Made by a program: the position numbers and the translations under genes
Notes under the pieces: generated by a model
The model's input: only the letters and a program-made list of their open reading frames with translations
Told to the model about the DNA's origin: nothing
Database searches by the model: none
Part shown: positions 1,459 through 52,881 of the stretch, one piece after another
Numbering within the stretch: the first letter of the stretch is position 1
How the letters are laid out: the number at the start of each line of letters is the position of its first letter
NCBI GenBank assembly: GCA_038063715.1
Contig: JBBTUO010000017.1
Span: forward strand, 22,518 to 86,517
Origin: Patescibacteria group bacterium
GTDB lineage: Bacteria > Patescibacteriota > Minisyncoccia > Phycocordibacterales > SIBU01
Direction: 5' to 3'
Length of the DNA: 64,000 bases

Positions 1459-3747
1459 TTAAATCGTTTTCCCCGCTCGAACTTGCTGTATCATAGGCTC
1501 AATCTGCCCTTTCGCTTCTGGATTAATCTCAATCACCTTTCGCAGGTCGGCAATCGCCGCGCTTGTCCTACCCAAATTTGCCTCGATGCTAGCGCGGGTG
1601 AAATAGAATTGAGGATTGTTTGGTTCCTGTTTAATTAAGAAATTCATACTAATAAGAGCTCGCTCGTAAAATCCAGATGAGTAGTACGCCAAAATCAATC
1701 TCTGATCAGACAAGACCAAACCTGACTCAAGTGGCTTCAGAATTTCATCAGCAAGCGCGATCTGTTTATCGTAAATAAGAGCGAGCGCGTAAATTTTACG
1801 AGCCTCGTTAAAACCAGGCTCAAGATCAAACGCTGTCTTCATGGTCGACACAGCCATCTTGAAATCTTTTTTGCCGAGATACGCCGAGCCAAGCGAGAAA
1901 AGAATGGTTTGCTTTTTCGGCGAAAGTTCGTGGGCCTTAGTCAAAAGTTTGATAGAAGCATCACTATCGCCAAAACTTGCCAGAAATGATCCAGCGAAAA
2001 GGTAGTATCGGGTATCCTCTGGCGCACGATCAATCTGTATCTTCATCTCTGTATTAGCCAAATCAAAAAAACTGCTTTTTATTTTCTGATCAACATTAGG
2101 ATTGCCAGCAGCCTGGCTAGTAGCCTGAACAAGCTGTTCACGAATTTCTGAATCACCGAGTGATCCTCGAGAAAGAGCTTTTTTGAAATACTCCAGATTA
2201 ACAGATGGTCCGGCAGAGTGAGCCCGTAACGCTTCTATCAACTCTACCGACGCGAGCATGGCGGGCACATTCACTTTATATATGATAAAGACCGTGGCAA
2301 TCGCGACCAAAGGGATCAGGATACGATTTTTAATTCCCTCGTCAACACTTCTCACTGTCTTTTCTAAAGCAGGAGAAACAGAACCCTCTGTACCACCAAT
2401 ATAAGAAAGCACCATTACAAACAAAATGTAACTGGTGATGTTGTCGAAAACGGTAAAATTGTGCATGAAATAGCCCACAAGAAGCCCCGTCAAAATACTG
2501 CTCTCAGTGCGAGAAAAGTGGCTTCCCTTCTTCCAAAGAAGATAAAGAGCGAAACCAAAGAGCGACAAATACGATAGCAAACCCAGAATTCCGCCAGCAA
2601 TCAACCAGTCAAAAAATACGTTGTGAGTACGGTCAAACCACTGTTCCTGACTGTACATACGAGGGTCATAGTATTTGTTGAAAACATAATTAAAACTCTC
2701 CTGCCCCCAACCAAATATCGGCTTCTCTTTTACTCCCTCAAAAGACATCGGCCAAAGCAAACAACGAGATTTTAATTCCCCATTGCAAATTATATTTTTA
2801 TCGAAGGTCAAAACCTGATCGACAAACGATCCGAGGCGATCTAAGGATTCACTTTTGTGAACAAAATCAGATTTCCGGCCCACCACAAACAAGCCTCCAA
2901 GAAGAACAATTGTAATCAATAGACCAGCGCCGATGCGGCGCAGAATTTTATTTTCTTTTTCAAAAACAACGAGCCCAATAGCAAAACATACTAGACCAGC
3001 AACAAGACCGATTTCTGCTCCTCGTGTTGCCGTTTTAAACAAAACAAAAATGTCAGCAATAATTGCCACCCCGTAAAAAATTGGCCAAAAAAGCCCCCAT
3101 GAATGCGTAACGTAATTTTTCTTGAAATAACCGAGTAGCAAATAAAGCGCCAGAAATACGTGGAAAAGCATGTACCCCCCGAGATACGCCGAATTACCGA
3201 TGGTCGCATCAACACGAGTAGCGCCTTGGTGAATTGCAAGAGTGCCTGCAAGTTGAAAACAACTGTATGCAAATAATATAAGACTAACACCGATAGATAC
3301 CTGAAATAATCGCTCCCACAATTTTTTGGTCATGACCGAACTCAACACCACAAAAAGCACAAAAAGATGGGCAATGGTTACCCAACCCTCCATGCGCTCG
3401 TAGTTAGACCAGAAACTTTTATAAGCATTCGGACTGAGCAAGTCGGAAATAAACAAAACGCCTACGAAAACAGCGAAGGCTTGGAAAATTCGGGAAAATT
3501 TTGGAAGGACTGTGTGATCCCGCAGTGCCAAAATAATCCACAGACATCCAATTGTTTCAACGATAATTCGAAATGCAAAATTCTTACCAGTAATAAAAGG
3601 GAAAAAGAAATGATCAGCGACAATCAAACAGATAAAAGGCAAAAGAAAAATCCCACTGATAATTGTATTGCGGAGAATTTTGTTTGTATCCATAATGCAA
3701 AAACTATAGCACAAAACAAAAACCGAGGCGACAGACGAACTAATCAT
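1459..3747 (-). CDS. O-antigen ligase/polymerase (Wzy_C-like) multi-pass membrane protein fused to a C-terminal TPR-repeat domain
   Basis: 762 aa. The N-terminal ~430 aa are very hydrophobic with many predicted TM helices, typical of the WaaL/Wzy family. The C-terminal ~300 aa carry repeated A/Y/L-rich 34-residue-type helical (TPR-like) repeats. Confidence 0.65.
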   Translation of the reverse strand: MISSSVASVFVLCYSFCIMDTNKILRNTIISGIFLLPFICLIVADHFFFPFITGKNFAFRIIVETIGCLWIILALRDHTVLPKFSRIFQAFAVFVGVLFISDLLSPNAYKSFWSNYERMEGWVTIAHLFVLFVVLSSVMTKKLWERLFQVSIGVSLILFAYSCFQLAGTLAIHQGATRVDATIGNSAYLGGYMLFHVFLALYLLLGYFKKNYVTHSWGLFWPIFYGVAIIADIFVLFKTATRGAEIGLVAGLVCFAIGLVVFEKENKILRRIGAGLLITIVLLGGLFVVGRKSDFVHKSESLDRLGSFVDQVLTFDKNIICNGELKSRCLLWPMSFEGVKEKPIFGWGQESFNYVFNKYYDPRMYSQEQWFDRTHNVFFDWLIAGGILGLLSYLSLFGFALYLLWKKGSHFSRTESSILTGLLVGYFMHNFTVFDNITSYILFVMVLSYIGGTEGSVSPALEKTVRSVDEGIKNRILIPLVAIATVFIIYKVNVPAMLASVELIEALRAHSAGPSVNLEYFKKALSRGSLGDSEIREQLVQATSQAAGNPNVDQKIKSSFFDLANTEMKIQIDRAPEDTRYYLFAGSFLASFGDSDASIKLLTKAHELSPKKQTILFSLGSAYLGKKDFKMAVSTMKTAFDLEPGFNEARKIYALALIYDKQIALADEILKPLESGLVLSDQRLILAYYSSGFYERALISMNFLIKQEPNNPQFYFTRASIEANLGRTSAAIADLRKVIEINPEAKGQIEPMIQQVRAGKTI

Positions 3748-3915
3748 TACAATGATTTGAAATCCCTAACCCTCTTGAGGTGATTCCATACAATTGCACG
3801 GTTGCGGGGTGATTGACTAATTAGTAAAAAAATGCTATCAATTAAAATAGAGTGACCTAGCATTCTGACAATTTATAAACGTCTCAACTCACCACCAGAA
3901 ACTTGAAAGTAACCT

Positions 3916-4632
3916 ATGAATCAGACTGCCTTGATGGCCAGCCTAAGAACAGGCCTTGGAAAAGTTTATCGGCCCCCAACTGCAATTGGCGGCCATGACA
4001 TTCAACACATAGAACGGCTACTCCTCATGTATCGGGAAATCAGCGAACTCATACCGGGTGTAAGTGAGTTTGAATACGAGATTGCAGTATGGCTTCACAA
4101 CCTTGACCGTTACCCGGCACTTCTTGCAAGTAGCGGCGCTTTAAACCTGACCTGTCTCATACACCTCTATCTCGCTCCAGGAAAGCTTGAGCCAGAGACC
4201 ACAGAGCGGATAATCACCGCTGTGATGGAACACTCCAAAAAGGATGACGGGACAAACGACTCGCCACTTTTGCAAGCATTACGACTTGCCGATAAGTGGG
4301 ATAGAATAGGTATACTTGGAATCACGGACAGTTTTTCCTGGAAAGGGCCACAACTGCCTGCATACGAAAAAACCGGTTTTGGTTATGGTAGCACAGCCGA
4401 AGGTTCCATGACATGTCACTACCAAAACTTCTACCGGGTGCTTGAGTGGTACACAATGTATCCACTCATACGTGAACTGGTGCGACGCAAACCACACCGA
4501 TTTGAACATCTGCTAGCCTGCATCAGAATGTTCGCACGAGAAGTATCGGAAGCACAAGATGTGCCGAACACTGTTGAAGATGACATTGCACGTTGTCTCG
4601 GTAATTTTTACCCTCAGTGGCATCCCAAATGA
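3916..4632 (+). CDS. Hypothetical protein (possible HD-domain-like metal-dependent hydrolase)
   Basis: 238 aa ORF of moderate GC. It has His/Asp-containing motifs (GGHDIQH, LHNLDR) that only weakly resemble an HD domain. A clear hairpin terminator follows it. Confidence 0.35.
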   Translation: MNQTALMASLRTGLGKVYRPPTAIGGHDIQHIERLLLMYREISELIPGVSEFEYEIAVWLHNLDRYPALLASSGALNLTCLIHLYLAPGKLEPETTERIITAVMEHSKKDDGTNDSPLLQALRLADKWDRIGILGITDSFSWKGPQLPAYEKTGFGYGSTAEGSMTCHYQNFYRVLEWYTMYPLIRELVRRKPHRFEHLLACIRMFAREVSEAQDVPNTVEDDIARCLGNFYPQWHPK

Positions 4633-4645
4633 TAAAACTCACTCT

Positions 4646-4683
4646 ACCCTCTTGTTACCAAATAACGAGAGGGTTTTTCTTTT
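4646..4683 (+). terminator. Rho-independent terminator
   Basis: accctct-(15 nt loop)-agagggt is followed by tttttctttt immediately after the stop at 4632. Confidence 0.6.
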
Positions 4684-4716
4684 AAAAGCTTTCTAAATAT
4701 TGCCAAATGAACCTAT

Positions 4717-4745
4717 TTGACACCTTTTGACACTTTTAGTATTAT
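4717..4745 (+). promoter_or_regulatory. Sigma70-type promoter TTGACA-N17-TATTAT with the ATG only 6 nt after the -10, implying a leaderless mRNA
   Basis: TTGACA at 4717-4722, a 17-nt spacer, then TATTAT at 4740-4745. The ATG of the HTH gene is at 4752. Confidence 0.5.
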
Positions 4746-4751
4746 ATAAAC

Positions 4752-5000
4752 ATGATTAAGGAAATCAAACCAGGTGGTGTATATACGACCACGGAAACGC
4801 GCGAACTGCTTAGGATAAGCGATAGCACAATTAAACGCCTGCTAAAAGGTGGACTAATTCGAGCCAATAAAATCGGCGGTCAATACCGTATACTCGGACA
4901 CGAAATTCTACGCCTGCTCTCCCCCGACATCGATCGAAGGGCAACCAACTCATATCAAAAGTTAAAACGAAATGTGGCAAGAACAGTAAAATATTGGTAG
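4752..5000 (+). CDS. Small helix-turn-helix DNA-binding protein (excisionase/MerR-like HTH family)
   Basis: 82 aa with an ..TTETRELLRISDSTIKRLLKGGLIRANKIGGQYRI.. pattern typical of excisionase-family HTH_17 domains. Confidence 0.55.
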   Translation: MIKEIKPGGVYTTTETRELLRISDSTIKRLLKGGLIRANKIGGQYRILGHEILRLLSPDIDRRATNSYQKLKRNVARTVKYW

Positions 5001-44148: not shown

Positions 44149-45381
44149 ATGAGTCGCGATTATAAAATAAAAAAAAGTTGTCGAATCTGTGGAAATACTA
44201 AATTTCTGAAGGTCTTAGACTTGGGCAAAAGCCCCCTAGCCAACGCCTTTTTATCGGCCAATGAACTGGAAAAGTCAGAGGCATATTTCCCCTTAGCTGT
44301 TTACTTCTGTCAAAAATGCACCCTTGTCAGTCTTAGACATATCGTCGAGCCAAGTCTACTTTTCAAAAACTACCACTATCTCACTAGTGCAAGCACACCC
44401 CTTTCATTACATTTTAAAAAACTGGCGTGGGAAGTTGGTACAAGATACATAAAATCAAAAAATGACCTGGTCGTTGAAATCGGAAGCAACGATGGTAGCC
44501 TACTCTCAAACTTAAAAAACCGTTGTCGCGTGCTTGGTATTGACCCCGCTGACAATGTAACAGAGATAGCTAAAAAAAATGGAGTGGAAACAGTTACGGC
44601 CTTCTTTAGTGAAAAAACCGCTGAGGCAGTGGTGCAGAAATATGGCAGAGCGAAGGTCGTACTGGCAAACAATGTAATTGCCCATATTGATGATCTCCAT
44701 AGCGTATTTGGTGGAATAAAAAAACTTCTATCTCCTGACGGTGTTTTTATATTTGAAGCTCACTGGGTTGGAAACTTAATCACCGATGGTGGGTTTGATC
44801 AGGTTTATCATGAGCATTTATCCTACTTTTCACTCCATGCAATAGAATACATAGTACAAGAATTTGGTATGACAATATTTGACGCGACACTTGTACCGAT
44901 TCATGGAGAATCTCTTAGAATTTCGGTCGGAAACTCTGGTAAGGCTTCAAAAAATGTCCGGTCCTTACGCCAAAAGGAAAAAATAATGAAGCTTGATAAA
45001 TACAGCACATTCAAAGATTTTGCTAAAAAAGTTGAGCGAAACAAAAATAAACTTAATACACTTTTACGTAAATTAAAAAAACAAGGTAACAAAATCATAG
45101 GCTACGGCGCACCCGCAAAGGGAAATACCCTTTTAAACTATTATAAAATAACACCGAAAATTTTAAATTTTATTACAGACACCACCCCACTTAAACAGGG
45201 ACTTTTTACTCCTGGCACGCACATTCTAATACTATCGCCTGATGTTCTTAAAACGGAGAAGCCTGATTATATTTTGCTTCTGTCCTGGAATTACAGTATA
45301 GAGATACTAAAAAAAGAAAGTACTCTAAGAAAGGAAGGGGTAAAATTTATTATTCCCGTACCAGATGTAAAGATCGTCTAA
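44149..45381 (+). CDS. NDP-hexose C-methyltransferase family protein (N-terminal Zn-binding Methyltransf_13 plus C-methyltransferase C-terminal domain architecture)
   Basis: CRICGNTKF...CQKCTLVSL cysteine pairs, then a class I MTase core (VVEIGSNDGSLL) and a long C-terminal domain. This resembles TylCIII/NovU-type sugar C-methyltransferases. Confidence 0.65.
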   Translation: MSRDYKIKKSCRICGNTKFLKVLDLGKSPLANAFLSANELEKSEAYFPLAVYFCQKCTLVSLRHIVEPSLLFKNYHYLTSASTPLSLHFKKLAWEVGTRYIKSKNDLVVEIGSNDGSLLSNLKNRCRVLGIDPADNVTEIAKKNGVETVTAFFSEKTAEAVVQKYGRAKVVLANNVIAHIDDLHSVFGGIKKLLSPDGVFIFEAHWVGNLITDGGFDQVYHEHLSYFSLHAIEYIVQEFGMTIFDATLVPIHGESLRISVGNSGKASKNVRSLRQKEKIMKLDKYSTFKDFAKKVERNKNKLNTLLRKLKKQGNKIIGYGAPAKGNTLLNYYKITPKILNFITDTTPLKQGLFTPGTHILILSPDVLKTEKPDYILLLSWNYSIEILKKESTLRKEGVKFIIPVPDVKIV

Positions 45382-46181
45382 GACCTCCATACTAATTTCC
45401 AAAATTTTCGGCAAATGTTTAAGTGATATACATGTCGTTCCCATTCAAGTGCCCACGGCATTTTTTTGCCCCTGCAAAAAAATAAATTACGTACATATCG
45501 AAAAATATACAAAGCGGAAATTTTGAAGTTTTCTGCGCAGACCGCCAACCAACCGAAAAATGAAATCGTCCCGCGACGTTCTACCTCAAGCTCTATATAA
45601 TGCGCCCATTTTCTTCGATGGAATGAAGGGTCAGGGTTTGTAGGAACCAACATAAAATTTATGATATTGAAAATTGGATAACCCTGCTTTACGTCAATCC
45701 GCTCGTGAATGGTTTTAATAAAACCATTCACAGCATCACGATGAAAAAATCTCATTTGCTTTGTGGGATAGGTCGCAGCACAATCAACAACTTCTCCAGA
45801 TAGAACATACCTTCTTGGCACCCAAAAAACGGCCGCCGGATGACCAGTGGAAATAATAGATTTAATCTCTCGCTCCAAAACTGGTGTCACAAGCTCATCG
45901 GAATCTAAGGAAAAAAACCATTGGTAACTAGCGAGAGACAGCATTTGATTTCTCACGCCAGAAAAATCAATGATTCGATTGCCTTCCCCTTTAAACTCTG
46001 GCGCCTGGACAATCACCTTCGCGCCAAAAGCGCGCGCTAAAGATAGCGTGTCATCCGTCGATCCTCCATCGCACACGATGATTTCAGCAAAATTTTTTAC
46101 AGAATCAAGGGCGGATTTGAGAGTAGCACCGTTATTAAAAGTAAGTATCCCGACACTGCACTGAATTTTATGATCATTCAT
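45378..46181 (-). CDS. GT2 family glycosyltransferase
   Basis: CSVGILTFNNGATLKSALDSVKNFAEIIVCDGGSTDDT. I chose the start at MNDHK. Confidence 0.75.
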   Translation of the reverse strand: MNDHKIQCSVGILTFNNGATLKSALDSVKNFAEIIVCDGGSTDDTLSLARAFGAKVIVQAPEFKGEGNRIIDFSGVRNQMLSLASYQWFFSLDSDELVTPVLEREIKSIISTGHPAAVFWVPRRYVLSGEVVDCAATYPTKQMRFFHRDAVNGFIKTIHERIDVKQGYPIFNIINFMLVPTNPDPSFHRRKWAHYIELEVERRGTISFFGWLAVCAENFKISALYIFRYVRNLFFCRGKKMPWALEWERHVYHLNICRKFWKLVWRS

Positions 46182-47250
46182 GTTTTTCAAACGCTTCAAT
46201 TGTGACAATAATCTTACCAACAAAATTTTTTAAGCTATGATCATTCACGACAATATCCCTAAGTGACTGACCTAACTCGATACGCTTATTTTCCGGCATT
46301 TGGATCATATCCTTAATTTTAACTGAAAGTGCCTGAAAATCCCCCTTAGGGTACATTAAATCGGCCTTAAAAGGGCCTAAAACCTCTTTAAACGCCTCGT
46401 TACAGGTCAAAACCGGTAAACCCGAGGCCATAGCCTCTGGAACCGCCTTATCGAGGCTTCCAGTTTGACCCATATTCACAAAAAGATCGTAGTCCGAAAG
46501 AACATCAGGAAGCTCCGTATTAGGCACCGGACCCAGAAAATTGATGACGGAAACCAGGTCTTTTTTAGCAACACTGTCTTTCAAACTCTCTAGATATTTT
46601 CTATCCGAATCGACAGATGTTGGACCGATAATGTCTACTTTAATTTTTAATTTAGAATCTTTGCAAACAACATCCATCGCTTCGATTAATGTCTCATAAT
46701 CCTTAGACGGCGAAATCCTACCCACGGACACAATTCGAAATTCTTCTCCATTACTTCTGAATCTTGAATCTTGAATCTTGAATCTACTTGTATCGATCCC
46801 CTGCCCAACCACCTTAACCTTTGAGCTCGGAAGTCGAAACCCGCTAGTTGTAGAAGTAAAGACAATATCCGTTAAAAAATGTGCGGCACGAAGATGCCAC
46901 GGAGTGCTTTTGTGCGCGTACCACAAGGTCACTGTTTTTCCCCACAATTTCCAAAACAAACCCCCGAGGACGATATACTCCGGATTCATATGTACAAAGA
47001 CGGCATCGTATTCACGGCGTGTTCGCCAAATGATTTTATAGAAATTGAAAATCCGAGCAACTCTTGATGCCCCGTGTTCTTTACCTAATGAAAAAACGCC
47101 AACATTGTCCGGGAGATGTGCCTCCCCTTTACCGAGACACACTGCGACCACCGATTGTGCCTGTCGAGAGAACTCAACAATCCAGCCATGCATAAAACCG
47201 AGAACTGCATCATTATCGTCAATCTTCTGGGTTATAATTAAAAGTCGCAT
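46174..47250 (-). CDS. GT4 (group 1) glycosyltransferase containing an internal heptanucleotide tandem repeat
   Basis: GT-B pattern with an E-x7-E-like C-terminal block (DKAVPEAMASGLPVL). Confidence 0.75.
   Translation of the reverse strand: MRLLIITQKIDDNDAVLGFMHGWIVEFSRQAQSVVAVCLGKGEAHLPDNVGVFSLGKEHGASRVARIFNFYKIIWRTRREYDAVFVHMNPEYIVLGGLFWKLWGKTVTLWYAHKSTPWHLRAAHFLTDIVFTSTTSGFRLPSSKVKVVGQGIDTSRFKIQDSRFRSNGEEFRIVSVGRISPSKDYETLIEAMDVVCKDSKLKIKVDIIGPTSVDSDRKYLESLKDSVAKKDLVSVINFLGPVPNTELPDVLSDYDLFVNMGQTGSLDKAVPEAMASGLPVLTCNEAFKEVLGPFKADLMYPKGDFQALSVKIKDMIQMPENKRIELGQSLRDIVVNDHSLKNFVGKIIVTIEAFEKHE
46758..46785. repeat. Perfect tandem repeat (TGAATCT)x4, 28 bp, inside the GT4 coding sequence
   Basis: Read directly: ctgaatcttgaatcttgaatcttgaatctac. 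The 7-nt unit is not a multiple of 3. Confidence 0.9.
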
Positions 47251-47303
47251 ATCTATATAACTTTTTCTTTAGTAAAAACATTGCGCGCCACACGAGCGAC
47301 TAC

Positions 47304-48668
47304 CTAGGTGCCGTAAGCAGCAAACAGAAAGAGAAACGGCGCAGAAGGAAGCCTGAAACGCGAATACGCCAATGGGCCAGTCAAAACAGCGAAGTAGAAA
47401 ATTAGCACAACAAAGAGTATGGCGTAGACGTGATACTTTCTGCCAGAAAATACAGCACCAACAAATGCGAGCGAGGATATCAAAAGCCAAAATAACTGCT
47501 CAAGCGTGACCACAGGTTGAATCTGAAGTTCTGACCAAAACTCTTTAAAACGAGCGCCTGCCAGTAAATTGGTCATATTACCTCCGTTAATTTTATAGGC
47601 TTCATAGCCCAAGGCGTTATTATAAAAAATCAGAGAATTTTTAATCTGGCTCGACAGAAAAAACGGCACCATCTTAATCAAATGGAACTTTGCGTACCCC
47701 CAAAAATCCTCCCGGATGTAACGAAAAGCGATTTTTTCCTCAGCGGGCGCGTACTCCAAGGAACCTATATCAATAGTTTCAGATGATGAGACACCGACAT
47801 CTCGTCTTAATTCCTCCATCAAAATATTTCTTCCTTCGTCGGCAGAAATTCCTCGAGTATATGACAAAAACTCTGGTACATAATACTGGAAGACATTCAA
47901 AGATTTCTCGTTGGCAATTCCCCAAACACCTGACACAGCATTGTTCCGAGCAACCCAAGGTACAACAACCGCGCTATAAGCAATAGTTAGTATAAAGAGG
48001 TTTATAATTATTTTCTTGGTTGAAATACGATTATTTTTAATTAAAAAATACAAGGGAATAATTACAATAGGCAAAAACATGGAAATAACCCGGGTGAGCA
48101 TAGCTACTCCGAAAAATATGCCGGCGAAAAAAGTTCGAACCGGTGCGCCTTCCTCAGTACCTTCAGCATCAAAAAAAAGCAGATAGACAGATAAAACAAG
48201 CAGAAAAACATATGGTATATCCGTCATAATGATAAGAGAGTGAAAAATTGTTGTCGGATCAAGAATAAATAAAAGCGCCGCGATTACTCCCGCTGAATAA
48301 GAAAAAACTCGCTCCCCTATTTTAAAAATTAAAAAACTAGTAGCACCAGCGAGTACCAGCTGCACCAAAGGAAACAGAGTATATGAACCGAACGTACCAA
48401 TAAAAATTGCCAAAAAAAGAGGGTACGCAGGCATAATAAAAGTCGCCGGCACAAACGGCGCCTGGACACTACCGGAAAAAACTCCGTGATGGAGAATGTT
48501 CCCCGCCAAGGTTACATAATATAAGCCATCTCCGTAGACCGGAAAAACTGACGGGAAATTTAGTAGGTATAACATCATAGGCACATAAACCAAAAAAATA
48601 ATGGCCGCAACAAACCAGCCAATATTTGCTTTCCAAGTTGTTATTCTGCGAAAAAATGTTTGAATCAT
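47304..48668 (-). CDS. GT-C fold membrane glycosyltransferase (ArnT/PMT_2-like)
   Basis: 454 aa, highly hydrophobic with about 11 TM segments. It is adjacent to a polyprenyl-P-sugar synthase, a GtrA-like protein and UDP-sugar enzymes. Confidence 0.55.
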   Translation of the reverse strand: MIQTFFRRITTWKANIGWFVAAIIFLVYVPMMLYLLNFPSVFPVYGDGLYYVTLAGNILHHGVFSGSVQAPFVPATFIMPAYPLFLAIFIGTFGSYTLFPLVQLVLAGATSFLIFKIGERVFSYSAGVIAALLFILDPTTIFHSLIIMTDIPYVFLLVLSVYLLFFDAEGTEEGAPVRTFFAGIFFGVAMLTRVISMFLPIVIIPLYFLIKNNRISTKKIIINLFILTIAYSAVVVPWVARNNAVSGVWGIANEKSLNVFQYYVPEFLSYTRGISADEGRNILMEELRRDVGVSSSETIDIGSLEYAPAEEKIAFRYIREDFWGYAKFHLIKMVPFFLSSQIKNSLIFYNNALGYEAYKINGGNMTNLLAGARFKEFWSELQIQPVVTLEQLFWLLISSLAFVGAVFSGRKYHVYAILFVVLIFYFAVLTGPLAYSRFRLPSAPFLFLFAAYGT

Positions 48669-51714: not shown

Positions 51715-52881
51715 CTATTCTACAGGAAAAATCTGCCCAAGGAAAGCTTGTTGAGCACCCTCGATAGAGGCCTTGTACAGAGCAAGATAAGTCAATTTTT
51801 CCTGAACAAAAGGCGCAACCGCCCCTGGAGCAATTTGAGTACTAAAAAAAAGACGCAGCTGATTGTTCTCAATCAGTCCTGAAATTGTTTTGGTAAAACA
51901 ATCCAGATCATTTACTGGACACACAAAAGAATGTCCTTTGTGATTCAACAGTTCTGGCGCAATACCAACATCTGAGGAAACCGCTGGCAAACCAGCAGCC
52001 ACTGCCTCGAGAAGCGCGATTCCAAAACCCTCATACAAAGATGTTTGCAAAAAAATATTAGCGGTTTTGTAATACGACACAACATCACCCTGCCAATTTT
52101 CAAACACAACATGTTTTGACAAGCCGGATAGCCAAACCCTCCACATGAGATTTCTCTTCAGTGGTCCATCCCCCACCACCACAAGACCAATTTTTGGATA
52201 CACCACAACAAGTTTTTTGAAAACACTGAGAGCGAAAACAATATTTTTTTCGTCAGACAGCCTTCCCACCATGAGTAGGATAAAATTCCACTGAGGGTAT
52301 TTTTGTTTCAAATCAAAAGACGGCGTCATAGCAGAAATATTCGAGATATCAGAAAAAATAGGCAAAACGGTGACGGCAGCTTTTAGCTTTAAGCTGCTAG
52401 CTGTTAGTGAGGACCTAACACGCTCAGATACCACACGGATACCATTGACCCTAGGCAATACAATTCGAGCAACAATGACCCGGATTCGATTAAGAATAGA
52501 ACTCGAAGCAAAATAAGAACTTAGAAAATCGGTGTGAATTTGAATATGCAGTGGAATTTTAAACCGATTCGAAATTTTTGACGCAACAAAACCGCATTCA
52601 AAAGGATCCTGAGCGTCAACGACCCAGTCCCCACCCCCGCGAAGAATTGACTTACCGATACGCAAAGCTCCCAAAACATACGACCAACGACTGATTGAGT
52701 TAGTCGCGTATGCAAAACAGTTAGGCGCCAACTGCAATTTGGCACCTACCGAGTGACTCCTTTTTGAAAACACAATGATGTGCAATTCCTCAAAAAGACC
52801 AGCATACTCAATCATTCTGAGTTGAACAGAACTCCCCTCTTTAAAAATATTTCTGTCTGTACTTATAGATATTACTTTCAT
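51715..52881 (-). CDS. GT4 (group 1) glycosyltransferase
   Basis: GT-B pattern with a C-terminal EGFGIALLEAVAAGLPAV E-x7-E block. Confidence 0.75.
   Translation of the reverse strand: MKVISISTDRNIFKEGSSVQLRMIEYAGLFEELHIIVFSKRSHSVGAKLQLAPNCFAYATNSISRWSYVLGALRIGKSILRGGGDWVVDAQDPFECGFVASKISNRFKIPLHIQIHTDFLSSYFASSSILNRIRVIVARIVLPRVNGIRVVSERVRSSLTASSLKLKAAVTVLPIFSDISNISAMTPSFDLKQKYPQWNFILLMVGRLSDEKNIVFALSVFKKLVVVYPKIGLVVVGDGPLKRNLMWRVWLSGLSKHVVFENWQGDVVSYYKTANIFLQTSLYEGFGIALLEAVAAGLPAVSSDVGIAPELLNHKGHSFVCPVNDLDCFTKTISGLIENNQLRLFFSTQIAPGAVAPFVQEKLTYLALYKASIEGAQQAFLGQIFPVE

What the first reader, a model, noticed from the sequence alone, without database searches (positions are those of the whole stretch)
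46758..46785. Four perfect copies of a heptanucleotide (TGAATCT) inside a GT4 glycosyltransferase gene: candidate slipped-strand phase-variation switch
The 7-bp unit is not a multiple of three. Gain or loss of one unit by slipped-strand mispairing would frameshift the 358-aa glycosyltransferase (46174-47250) and switch its glycan modification off. Phase-variable LPS/glycan genes in Haemophilus, Neisseria and Campylobacter work this way. Four copies is at the low end for efficient slippage. However, it is the only perfect multi-copy tandem microsatellite I found in the whole 64 kb, and it sits in exactly the gene class where phase variation is typical.
Basis: seen in the sequence. Interest (0 to 1): 0.6.

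Follow-up and report, generated by a model that had tools for sequence, protein, structure and literature searches.

The report
Frameshift-prone 7-base repeat in glycosyltransferase
Four perfect copies of a 7-base repeat sit in the flexible linker of a sugar-transferase gene of a groundwater Patescibacteria bacterium, and similar 7-base repeats recur almost only in this enzyme class across the phylum, which points to a slippage-based on/off switch, although no switched-off copy of this gene was found.

Summary
Window 46758-46785 is (TGAATCT)x4, which reads (AGATTCA)x4 on the coding strand. It lies at codons 156-165 of a 358-aa GT4 glycosyltransferase (46174-47250, minus strand). Gaining or losing one unit truncates the protein at 168 or 185 aa.

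It is not chance: 0 of 300 shuffles gave a 4-copy heptamer. It also belongs to a wider pattern. Across 147 dereplicated Patescibacteria loci, perfect heptanucleotide arrays occur 47 times in GT4 ORFs, once in other ORFs and twice between genes. Almost no other repeat period is seen. The arrays sit at three loop positions, use different units in different lineages, and most often have 4.0-4.5 copies.

An orthologue whose third codon positions are saturated carries the identical 28-nt tract, so the DNA repeat is what is maintained, not the peptide.

This supports a slippage-driven contingency switch. However, every sampled allele of this gene has 4 copies and is intact. No OFF product exists in public collections. 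Only one related gene (L168) looks like a one-unit-loss OFF allele.

Confidence in a working switch is about 0.5. The main rival is a non-adaptive slippage scar.

The parts
46758..46785 (-). Heptanucleotide tract (AGATTCA)x4 on the coding strand. It encodes R156-F164 plus the first base of codon 165.
   Evidence: It is perfect, the only such array in the window, and 0 of 300 shuffles gave a 4-copy heptamer.
46174..47250 (-). GT4 (GT-B fold) glycosyltransferase gene of 358 aa. It is conserved across Patescibacteria.
   Evidence: Pfam PF00534/PF13692. 2380 homologues, and the exact protein is annotated as from a Patescibacteria MAG. The AF2 model has pLDDT 92.7 and matches HepE, BshA and MshA.
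46786..47250 (-). Region encoding the N-terminal Rossmann-like domain (residues 1-155). This is all that remains in frame after a one-unit slip.
   Evidence: Strands and helices up to residue 147, then the GQGID motif.
46174..46757 (-). Region encoding the rest of the linker and the C-terminal Glycos_transf_1 domain (Pfam stretch 163-323). It is lost in the 3-copy and 5-copy alleles.
46741..46770 (-). Codons 161-170. This is the only low-confidence stretch of the structure model (mean pLDDT 60), a flexible inter-domain loop that tolerates arbitrary peptide sequence.
   Evidence: pLDDT by blocks of 10 residues. The linker is the most variable segment in alignment A1.
45378..46181 (-). Downstream GT2 glycosyltransferase. 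Its called start overlaps the GT4 stop by 8 nt, so it is possibly translationally coupled and could be affected by premature termination in the GT4 (inference).
   Evidence: Gene calls on L001 (GT4 3001-4077, GT2 4070-4873). Pfam PF00535.
47304..48668 (-). Upstream PMT_2-family (GT-C) glycosyltransferase in the same conserved PMT_2 - GT4 - GT2 gene order.
   Evidence: The same order is seen in L001 and L086.

Best explanation
The tract is a microsatellite generated by slipped-strand mispairing and then maintained. It probably acts as a low-frequency, reversible frameshift (contingency) switch for a surface-glycan GT4 glycosyltransferase.

Shown:
- The tract is perfect and non-random.
- It lies in a disordered inter-domain loop, where its translation in any frame is tolerated.
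- A change of one unit truncates the enzyme before the nucleotide-sugar-binding C-domain.
- Across Patescibacteria, heptanucleotide arrays are concentrated in GT4 genes at three loop positions. Unit sequences are lineage-specific and the modal length is 4.0-4.5 copies.
- The identical 28-nt tract persists in an orthologue with saturated synonymous divergence.

Inferred:
- A 4-unit homogeneous array in an intact gene can only arise or be re-homogenised through single-unit steps, which are frameshifted intermediates. The lineage has therefore passed through OFF states and returned to ON.
- Selection (second-order, for switchability) or continuing slippage keeps the array perfect.
- In large populations rare 3-copy and 5-copy cells lack this glycan step. 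That could pay off under phage attack or a change in host attachment.

At only 4 copies the rate is expected to be far below that of classical phase variation. ON is the state that dominates in every population sampled.
For: Anatomy and chance:
-.

Permissive loop:
- AF2 pLDDT is 60 only at residues 161-170.

Family-wide 7-nt signal:
- In 71 of 80 GTDB orthologue loci with a recognisable GQGID...VGRI linker, the linker holds 9 perfect heptamer arrays and one 14-mer, and none of any other period.
- Lag autocorrelation over 140 dereplicated linkers peaks at 7, 14 and 21 (0.365, 0.363, 0.345 against about 0.28). Flanking control segments show no such peak.

Gene-class specificity:
- Perfect arrays of at least 18 nt with period 7 number 47 in GT4 ORFs (333 kb), 1 in other ORFs (393 kb) and 2 between genes (69 kb).
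- Periods 2-6 and 10-12 give zero.
- TRF finds 71 imperfect heptamer arrays in GT4 ORFs and 0 in other ORFs.
- Seven array-bearing neighbour ORFs are all PF00534.

Positions and copy number:
- Arrays cluster at relative positions 0.18-0.25, 0.45-0.51 and 0.63-0.68. Copy numbers have a mode at 4.0-4.5.

DNA-level conservation, not peptide-level:
- Units differ by lineage: AGATTCA, AGGTTCA, ATTCAAA, CAAATCA, AATTTTC, GCTGCCG and AATTACG. They encode unrelated peptides.
- The window gene and L086 share 68.5% nt identity and 45.5% third-position identity. Even so, the longest identical run in the whole gene (32 nt) is the array.
- L044 and L045 (81% nt identity) keep their arrays.
- Close orthologues carry variant units in a 21-nt higher-order pattern, as expected from slippage.

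One natural OFF allele:
- The GT4 in L168 is split inside a degenerate 3.3-unit array. Adding one unit restores a 349-aa ORF.

Precedent:
- A heptanucleotide repeat controls phase variation of the glycosyltransferase pglE in N. meningitidis (PMC7157529).
- Heptanucleotide SSRs are accepted phase-variation candidates from 3 units upward (PMC2651432).
Against: No length polymorphism was seen:
- Contigs from at least four Hainich assemblies or runs, three gene haplotypes and the window's own locus variant all carry 4 copies.
- Exact look-ups of six alternative-copy products of this gene, and of eight products from four other arrays, found nothing.
- The N-terminal-only search found no fragment of this species.

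No OFF alleles in the comparative sets:
- None of 80 metagenome loci chosen by the N-domain alone is frameshifted at the linker.
- No split GT4 was found among about 300 GT4 ORFs.
- All 20 arrays of at least 3.5 copies are in frame. Classical contingency genes are OFF in a large share of genomes (my own knowledge).

Tract length:
- Four copies is below the threshold of 5 used by PhasomeIt for longer units.
- It is far below the 6-38 copies of proven heptanucleotide tracts.
- No coding array exceeds 4.9 copies.

Other points:
- The gene is broadly conserved (42-70% identity across classes), unlike typical strain-variable accessory genes.
- Most truncated relatives on long contigs are broken at homopolymers, by a nonsense codon or by an insertion, not at arrays.
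- The strict preference for period 7 is not predicted by the switch model.
Confidence: 0.5

Rival explanations
1. Non-adaptive slippage scar. The loops of GT4 enzymes tolerate any inserted peptide. Rare slippage events, followed by compensating events, have left short heptamer arrays there. These arrays are now effectively stable and have no switching role.
For: - Every allele is in frame and copy number is constant between strains and across deep divergence.
- Arrays never exceed 4.9 copies.
- Some arrays visibly decay in relatives, as in L016, L070 and L012.
- The same loops also collect other insertions: palindromic inserts and a PDDEXK_3 ORF. This shows they are simply very permissive.
Against: - A neutral permissive loop should accumulate in-frame repeats (periods 3, 6, 9) most easily, yet none is seen.
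- Intergenic DNA, where arrays cost nothing, has about 5-fold fewer arrays than GT4 ORFs. Other ORFs have about 50-fold fewer.
- 28 of 28 identical bases in a loop whose peptide is otherwise unconstrained, against 45.5% third-position identity elsewhere, requires selection or ongoing homogenisation.
Confidence: 0.3
2. In-frame linker tuning. The array exists to allow steps of 21 nt (7 aa) that lengthen or shorten the inter-domain linker or loops. This would change domain closure or acceptor specificity rather than switching the enzyme off.
For: - Variant units in L169 and L170 follow a 21-nt higher-order pattern, u1u2u3-u1u2.
- Lag 21 is also elevated in the linker, though a control segment is too.
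- Hot spot 2 varies widely in length between orthologues: median 23 aa, 95th percentile 40 aa.
Against: - Linker length is almost constant (31 aa) in the window's clade, whatever the state of the array.
- No 1-copy or 7-copy alleles of the same array were seen.
- A 21-nt repeat would do this job without needing internal 7-nt periodicity.
Confidence: 0.08
3. The arrays are footprints or landing sites of some other DNA-level process that targets GT4 loops. Candidates are small mobile or palindromic elements, or a protein or RNA binding site. Under this reading the frameshift potential is incidental.
For: - Arrays are often interrupted by short GC-rich palindromic in-frame inserts, with array units on both sides (L086, L017, L059, L024).
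- One relative has a PDDEXK_3 ORF inserted exactly in the linker (L173).
- The same units (AATTACG, AATTTTC) appear at different hot spots and in different genes.
- The strict period of 7 suggests a specific mechanism.
Against: - The window's tract has no insert and no flanking inverted repeats.
- No mobile-element gene lies next to it.
- Unit sequences differ between lineages, so no common binding motif exists.
- Re-use of units can be explained by AT-rich composition together with the need to be stop-free in all three frames.
Confidence: 0.07
4. Chance repeat with no meaning.
For: Only 4 copies. A whole genome contains many 64-kb windows.
Against: - 0 of 300 shuffles gave a 4-copy heptamer.
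- The identical tract is present in a diverged orthologue.
- The pattern is recurrent and specific to GT4 genes.
Confidence: 0.01

Closest known systems
pglE of Neisseria meningitidis / N. gonorrhoeae (protein O-glycosylation galactosyltransferase, phase-variable through an intragenic heptanucleotide repeat; PMC7157529)
   Same: A 7-nt unit lies inside the ORF of a glycosyltransferase that extends a surface glycan. A change of one unit frameshifts the enzyme.
   Different: pglE switching has been seen directly in carriage isolates, with both ON and OFF states. Here no length variant has been seen. The organism is a free-living or episymbiotic groundwater Patescibacteria bacterium, not a host-adapted pathogen. 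Homology between the two enzymes was not tested.
Haemophilus influenzae heptanucleotide SSRs: (TGAAAGA)13-38 in the hmw1A/hmw2A promoters, (AACAACC)1-13 at or within TonB-dependent receptor genes, (AATTTTG)14 inside hmw1A (PMC2651432)
   Same: The unit length is 7 nt. Intragenic examples cause frameshift truncation. That survey used a threshold of 3 or more units, which this tract passes. One unit, AATTTTG, is close to the AATTTTC found here in relatives.
   Different: Those tracts are long and visibly polymorphic between strains (1-38 units). Here tracts are capped at about 4-5 units and are invariant in the samples available.
Poly-G contingency genes of Campylobacter jejuni capsule, LOS and flagellar glycosylation loci (PhasomeIt, PMC6321876)
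   Same: Frameshift-prone SSRs are concentrated in glycan-modification genes. One repeat type dominates the lineage.
   Different: Those are homopolymers of 7 or more units, with measured rates and many OFF alleles in genomes. The PhasomeIt cut-off for longer units (5 or more) is not met here.
Hypervariable 9-mer (PTD tripeptide) repeat gene of a Gracilibacteria (CPR) genome (PMC6851277)
   Same: This is the only CPR report found in which perfect tandem repeats were argued to be prone to slippage and under diversifying pressure.
   Different: That unit is 9 nt and in frame, so it changes protein length or sequence and does not act as an ON/OFF switch. The arrays are long and the protein is not a glycosyltransferase.

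Membership tests
SSR (slipped-strand) phase-variable / contingency locus | A tandem repeat whose unit is not a multiple of 3, placed in an ORF (or promoter) so that a change of one unit alters expression | tested here: met
   (AGATTCA)x4 lies at gene nt 466-493. Three copies give 185 aa and five copies give 168 aa, and both products lack the C-domain.
SSR (slipped-strand) phase-variable / contingency locus | Tract long enough to be hypermutable | tested here: inconclusive
   The tract passes the threshold of 3 or more units used for heptanucleotide SSRs in H. influenzae. It fails the cut-off of 5 or more for longer units in PhasomeIt. Proven heptamer tracts have 6-38 units.
SSR (slipped-strand) phase-variable / contingency locus | Repeat-number polymorphism between strains or genomes, including OFF alleles | tested here: not met
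   All contigs of this species carry 4 copies (three gene haplotypes plus the window's own locus variant). The 70%-identical orthologue also has 4 copies. No alternative-copy product is in public collections. The test has low power, because it used consensus assemblies from a single aquifer.
SSR (slipped-strand) phase-variable / contingency locus | Within-population heterogeneity and measurable reversible switching | not testable with these tools
   This needs read mapping to the Hainich libraries or a reporter assay.
SSR (slipped-strand) phase-variable / contingency locus | Frameshift-prone SSRs over-represented in surface or glycan genes relative to the rest of the genome | tested here: met
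   There are 47 perfect heptamer arrays in GT4 ORFs, 1 in other ORFs and 2 between genes. There are no in-frame-period arrays. The background is limited to about 0.8 Mb of glycan-locus flanks, not whole genomes.
CAZy GT4-type GT-B glycosyltransferase | C-terminal Glycos_transf_1 domain | tested here: met
   PF00534 with E = 6.4e-20 and PF13692 with E = 2e-16.
CAZy GT4-type GT-B glycosyltransferase | Two-Rossmann-domain GT-B fold similar to solved GT4 enzymes | tested here: met
   The AF2 model has pLDDT 92.7. Foldseek against the PDB gives HepE 4xso (E = 6e-17, TM 0.78), then BshA and MshA.
CAZy GT4-type GT-B glycosyltransferase | Donor and acceptor specificity / biochemical activity | not testable with these tools
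   The closest solved structures are only 12-18% identical, so no specific function can be assigned.

The most novel reading that the evidence does not exclude
Patescibacteria (CPR) possess a phylum-wide set of phase-variable genes built almost exclusively from heptanucleotide tracts of about 4 units. These tracts sit in three permissive loops of GT4 glycosyltransferases. The window's tract is one member. Surface-glycan steps would then be stochastically switched in these ultra-small episymbionts. The strict 7-nt period would reflect either a lineage-specific slippage bias or a dedicated, still unknown mechanism, possibly linked to the palindromic inserts that interrupt many arrays.
Probability: 0.35. 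Interest if true: 0.8.

Novelty: new variant of a known kind. Interest (0 to 1): 0.62.

Why it matters
SSR-driven phase variation is textbook biology for host-adapted pathogens. In the literature I could search, no paper links it to CPR/Patescibacteria. These bacteria are a large fraction of bacterial diversity, live attached to other cells, and cannot easily be cultured.

If the tracts do switch, they would give these organisms a cheap way to vary their surface glycans against phages or hosts. They would also give researchers a sequence signature (heptamer tracts in GT4 loops) that can be scored directly in metagenomic reads, turning 'do CPR bacteria bet-hedge?' into a directly testable question.

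Even if the tracts do not switch, the pattern is an unexplained regularity of genome evolution. The arrays are almost exclusively of period 7, almost exclusively in GT4 genes, have a modal 4.0-4.5 copies, and show nucleotide-perfect conservation across saturated divergence.

Tried and rejected
- Peptide-level conservation as the explanation was rejected. Orthologues keep the 7-nt periodicity with different units and unrelated peptides.
- Chance was rejected.
- A general genome-wide tendency to make 7-nt repeats was rejected for the about 0.8 Mb examined. Other ORFs and intergenic DNA are nearly free of such repeats.
- The search for OFF alleles led to very little. Exact look-ups of predicted alternative-copy products of this gene and of four other arrays and frame analysis of 160 related loci found no OFF allele. 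Two protein searches with the N-domain alone returned many truncated fragments. Of the six fragments whose DNA I fetched, only L168 fits a unit loss. L167 and L174 are broken at homopolymers, L174 also carrying an in-frame stop; L172 has an in-frame TGA, and L173 an inserted PDDEXK_3 ORF.
- A TGA-recoding explanation for the in-frame stop in L172 was considered and not pursued, because the neighbouring gene is called as a full-length protein under the standard code used by the gene caller.
- A transposon-footprint origin (7-bp target duplications) was considered. Nothing in the window supports it.
- A sequence search of the PDB and a fold search did not assign a specific enzymatic function.
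- The literature search for SSR phase variation in CPR, Patescibacteria or Saccharibacteria found nothing relevant, apart from an in-frame 9-mer case in Gracilibacteria.
Full report
**1. The observation**

Window 46758-46785 reads TGAATCT four times without a mismatch. Tandem Repeats Finder reports it as period 7, 4.0 copies, 100% matches, score 56, the best-scoring array in the window.

My own scan finds it is the only perfect array of period 4-9 with at least three copies in the 64 kb. Of 300 dinucleotide-preserving shuffles, 4 contained any array of four or more copies, and none contained a four-copy heptamer.

The tract lies in the minus-strand ORF 46174-47250 (358 aa). That ORF matches Pfam Glycos_transf_1 (E = 6e-20) and Glyco_trans_1_4. 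On the coding strand the tract is (AGATTCA)x4 at gene nt 466-493. It encodes R156-F164 within GQGIDTS-RFKIQDSRF-RSNGEEFRIVSVGRI.

- 3 copies terminate at 185 aa
- 5 copies terminate at 168 aa
- 2 copies terminate at 161 aa
- 1 and 7 copies stay in frame

**2. Organism and gene**

The exact protein is annotated as from a Patescibacteria MAG. It occurs on contigs from GCA_964356825.1, a Logan assembly of ERR3858121, and several assemblies from Hainich groundwater well H41.

The gene sits in a conserved order, PMT_2-family GT-C, then GT4, then GT2. It lies within a large glycan-synthesis region containing RmlD-like, epimerase/dehydratase, nucleotidyltransferase, C-methyltransferase and other genes.

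The protein family is widespread in Patescibacteria. There are 2380 hits, and the listed orthologues are 42-70% identical and carry many invariant motifs.

An AlphaFold2 model built on 35 orthologues is confident (mean pLDDT 92.7). It is a typical GT-B fold, closest to the GT4 enzymes HepE, BshA and MshA at 12-18% identity. No specific activity can be assigned.

The only low-confidence block of the model is residues 161-170 (mean pLDDT 60). That is the loop encoded by the second half of the tract and the bases just after it, between the last strand of the N-domain and the first strand of the C-domain. The tract is therefore translated into a flexible inter-domain linker.

**3. The tract is one instance of a family-wide pattern**

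*Recurrence at the same site.* I fetched 80 orthologous loci from GTDB species representatives and 80 from metagenomes. The metagenome loci were chosen with the N-terminal domain alone, so intact and broken genes had equal chances of selection.

In the roughly 90-nt linker between the GQGID and VGRI motifs of the GTDB set (recognised in 71 of the 80 loci), there are nine perfect heptanucleotide arrays of at least 2.5 copies, one 14-mer array, and no array of any other period. The units differ by lineage and encode unrelated peptides:

| Locus | Unit | Copies |
|---|---|---|
| L006 | CAAATCA | 3.6 |
| L016 | AATTACG | 2.7 |
| L028 | AGGTTCA | 4.3 |
| L044 / L045 | ATTCAAA | 4.4 / 4.7 |
| L055 | AATTTTC | 4.3 |
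| L071 | GCTGCCG | 4.4 |

*Periodicity.* Over 140 dereplicated linkers, the self-match fraction peaks at lags 7, 14 and 21 (0.365, 0.363, 0.345, against about 0.28). Equally long control segments on either side show ordinary codon periodicity and no peak at 7 or 14.

*Specificity to GT4 genes.* Over 147 dereplicated loci (795 kb), perfect arrays of at least 18 nt and 2.5 copies are distributed as follows:

| Period | GT4 ORFs (333 kb) | Other ORFs (393 kb) | Intergenic (69 kb) |
|---|---|---|---|
| 7 | 47 | 1 | 2 |
| 8 | 2 | 0 | 0 |
| 2-6, 10-12 | 0 | 0 | 0 |

When mismatches are allowed, TRF finds 71 heptamer arrays of at least three copies in GT4 ORFs and none in other ORFs. The seven array-bearing neighbour ORFs I tested are all Glycos_transf_1 proteins.

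*Positions and copy number.* The arrays cluster at three relative positions in the genes:
- 0.18-0.25, a loop after the conserved SLGKE motif ('hot spot 2')
- 0.45-0.51, the inter-domain linker
- 0.63-0.68, a loop in the C-domain

Copy numbers are bimodal. One class lies at 2.5-3.0 and there is a clear mode at 4.0-4.5. No coding array exceeds 4.9 copies.

**4. Conservation of the DNA repeat, not of the peptide**

The orthologue P0006 (L086/L091) is 70% identical in protein and 68.5% in DNA. Its third-position identity is only 45.5%, which is essentially saturated. It nevertheless carries exactly AGTAGATTCAAGATTCAAGATTCAAGATTCAG. This 32-nt identical run is the longest in the whole gene alignment, and it lies in the otherwise most variable segment.

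L044 and L045 (81% nt identity) likewise keep both of their linker arrays.

Other close orthologues have 4.4-5.3 units with variant bases:
- L171: AGATTCA / GGATTCA
- L170: AGATTCA / TGATTCA
- L169: AAATTCA / ATATTCA

In L169 and L170 these variants are arranged in a 21-nt higher-order pattern, all within the same 31-aa linker length. Elsewhere a 2.7-copy array is seen decaying among relatives (L016, L070, L012).

This is what concerted evolution by slippage looks like. It cannot be explained by selection on the peptide.

**5. What speaks for a switch**

A neutral, permissive loop should collect in-frame repeats (periods 3, 6, 9) most readily, and intergenic DNA should collect all kinds. Instead, the only repeats present are those that shift the frame. 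They are about 5-fold denser in GT4 ORFs than between genes, and about 50-fold denser than in other ORFs.

A homogeneous four-unit array in an intact gene also implies that the lineage went through single-unit, frameshifted intermediates and came back to ON. The mode at 4.x copies is what one expects if 1.x is the ground state and only net changes of three units restore the frame.

Over-representation of frameshift-prone SSRs in surface-glycan genes is the classical signature of contingency loci. An intragenic heptanucleotide repeat controls phase variation of the glycosyltransferase pglE in N. meningitidis (PMC7157529). Heptanucleotide tracts are recognised phase-variation mediators in H. influenzae (PMC2651432).

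I found one natural allele that fits a unit loss. The GT4 relative in L168 is split in the linker, inside a degenerate TGAATCA-AGAATTA-TGAATTA array. Duplicating one unit restores a 349-aa ORF whose linker reads ...IKNYEL..., as in intact relatives. Any +1 or -2 indel in that short window would restore the frame too, so this is suggestive and not proof.

**6. What speaks against a working switch**

Every contig of the window's species carries 4 copies. That covers three SNP-distinguishable gene haplotypes and the window's own locus variant, whose GT4 gene is identical to one of them.

Further negative results:
- The predicted products of 1, 2, 3, 5, 6 and 7 copies are absent from a 15-billion-protein collection.
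- So are the one-unit-up and one-unit-down products of four other arrays.
- A search with the N-domain alone returned only fragments, and none of them is from this species (best hit 66% identity).
- None of the 80 metagenome loci picked by the N-domain is frameshifted in the linker.
- No split GT4 was found among about 300 GT4 ORFs.
- All 20 arrays of at least 3.5 copies are in frame.

Truncated relatives on long contigs do exist, so the gene can be lost. But most are broken elsewhere:
- at homopolymers (L167, L174)
- by a nonsense codon inside a variant unit (L172)
- by insertion of a PDDEXK_3 ORF in the linker (L173)

Four units is at the bottom of what is considered mutable. It passes the threshold of 3 or more used by Power et al., fails the cut-off of 5 or more in PhasomeIt, and is far below the 6-38 units of proven heptamer tracts. 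The gene is also much more conserved than typical strain-variable accessory genes.

**7. Conclusion on mechanism**

Most likely (about 0.5), the tract is a slippage-generated microsatellite, maintained by selection, that works as a low-rate reversible frameshift switch of this glycan step. ON would be the state that dominates in situ.

The main rival (about 0.3) is that it is a stable scar of past slippage in a very permissive loop. Minor rivals are in-frame tuning of linker length, and a still unknown DNA-level process that targets these loops.

Neither the switch model nor the scar model explains why the period is almost always 7.

**8. Comparison with known systems and novelty**

The tract works like the SSR contingency loci of Neisseria, Haemophilus and Campylobacter. 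The closest analogue is pglE. It cannot be filed as a confirmed member of that class, because the defining feature, observed length polymorphism with ON and OFF states, was looked for in the available assemblies and not found. Read-level heterogeneity could not be tested.

It differs in four ways:
- uniformly short tracts of about 4 units
- almost exclusively heptanucleotide units
- placement in three conserved loops of one enzyme fold
- nucleotide-perfect persistence over deep divergence

It also occurs in groundwater CPR bacteria rather than in host-adapted pathogens. In the searchable literature, no paper links SSR phase variation with CPR, Patescibacteria or Saccharibacteria. The nearest report is an in-frame 9-mer hypervariable gene in a Gracilibacterium.

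I therefore rate it a new variant of a known kind, with interest 0.62. The single tract alone would be modest. The family-wide regularity it led to is surprising and directly testable with existing read data.

Noticed in passing
Related loci, e.g. L005:3181-3211, L047:3177-3205, L044:3180-3204, L071:3180-3216; also L016:996-1021, L043:1745-1778, L127:836-865, L137:1249-1281: Besides the linker, there are two further hot spots for heptanucleotide arrays in GT4 genes. One is a loop after the SLGKE motif (relative position about 0.2), which is absent or short in the window's gene. The other is a loop at about 0.65 in upstream paralogous GT4 genes. Some genes carry two or three tracts at once: L044 has AGACAACx3.6, AAAAATTx3 and ATTCAAAx4.4, and L071 has an 8-nt array GGAAATTGx4.6 plus GCTGCCGx4.4.
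   Followed up: partly
L086:1660-1760 (hot spot 2); also hot spot 2 of L017, L059, L024, L077, L067, L125, L065, L055, L106, L131: Short GC-rich palindromic (hairpin-forming) segments of about 16-45 nt are inserted in frame in these loops. They often sit in the middle of a heptamer array, with array units on both sides. In L086 the arrangement is AATTTTCx2, then a 39-nt insert, then AATTTTCx2.3. L125, L065 and L055 share a near-perfect palindrome, CCAGCCCAAGGCTGGCCAGCCTTGGGCTGG. The origin is unknown: template switching, or a tiny mobile element?
   Followed up: partly
L173:1380-1900: In one relative, the GT4 is interrupted in the linker by an ORF with a PDDEXK_3 (PF13366) domain. That ORF is fused in frame to the C-terminal glycosyltransferase domain. 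A 15-nt direct repeat, GCAGAGACACGCGGA, lies just upstream of the insertion.
   Followed up: no
L043:5640-5686: (AAACCCT)x6.7 is the longest heptamer array seen. It cannot be translated, because TAA occurs in every frame. It lies at the 3' end of a 437-aa GT4-like ORF. The unit is the reverse complement of the plant-type telomere repeat TTTAGGG.
   Followed up: no
window 52378-52407 (gene 51715-52881, minus strand): A second GT4 gene in the window (PF00534, E = 5e-32) carries a degenerate heptamer array, CTAACAG-CTAGCAG-CTTAAAG-CTAAAAG (TRF: 4.3 copies, 78% matches). It lies at residues 159-168, roughly the same inter-domain position. It may be a decayed tract.
   Followed up: partly
window 47253-47306: The window differs from the MAG contig L001 by 2 SNPs in 7077 nt. 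One SNP is a nonsense change that ends the upstream PMT_2-family gene 17 codons early (454 aa instead of 471 aa in L001 and L085).
   Followed up: partly
L127 (linker of the focal gene) and L172:1366-1371: Two relatives have an in-frame stop codon inside the linker while the reading frame continues unchanged: ...NSILY*GRIS... in L127, and GIDTDK*RSTNYEL... in L172. The stop in L172 is a TGA inside a variant unit of an ACGAAKT x4 array. It is unclear whether these are pseudogenes, sequencing errors or recoding.
   Followed up: no
window 46174-46181: The called start of the downstream GT2 gene overlaps the end of the GT4 gene by 8 nt (gene calls on L001). This suggests translational coupling. 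Premature termination in the GT4 might therefore also lower GT2 expression.
   Followed up: no
window 46639-46653: The same GT4 gene holds a second, minimal heptamer repeat, AATTAAA x2.1 on the coding strand (gene nt 598-612, encoding KLKIK).
   Followed up: no
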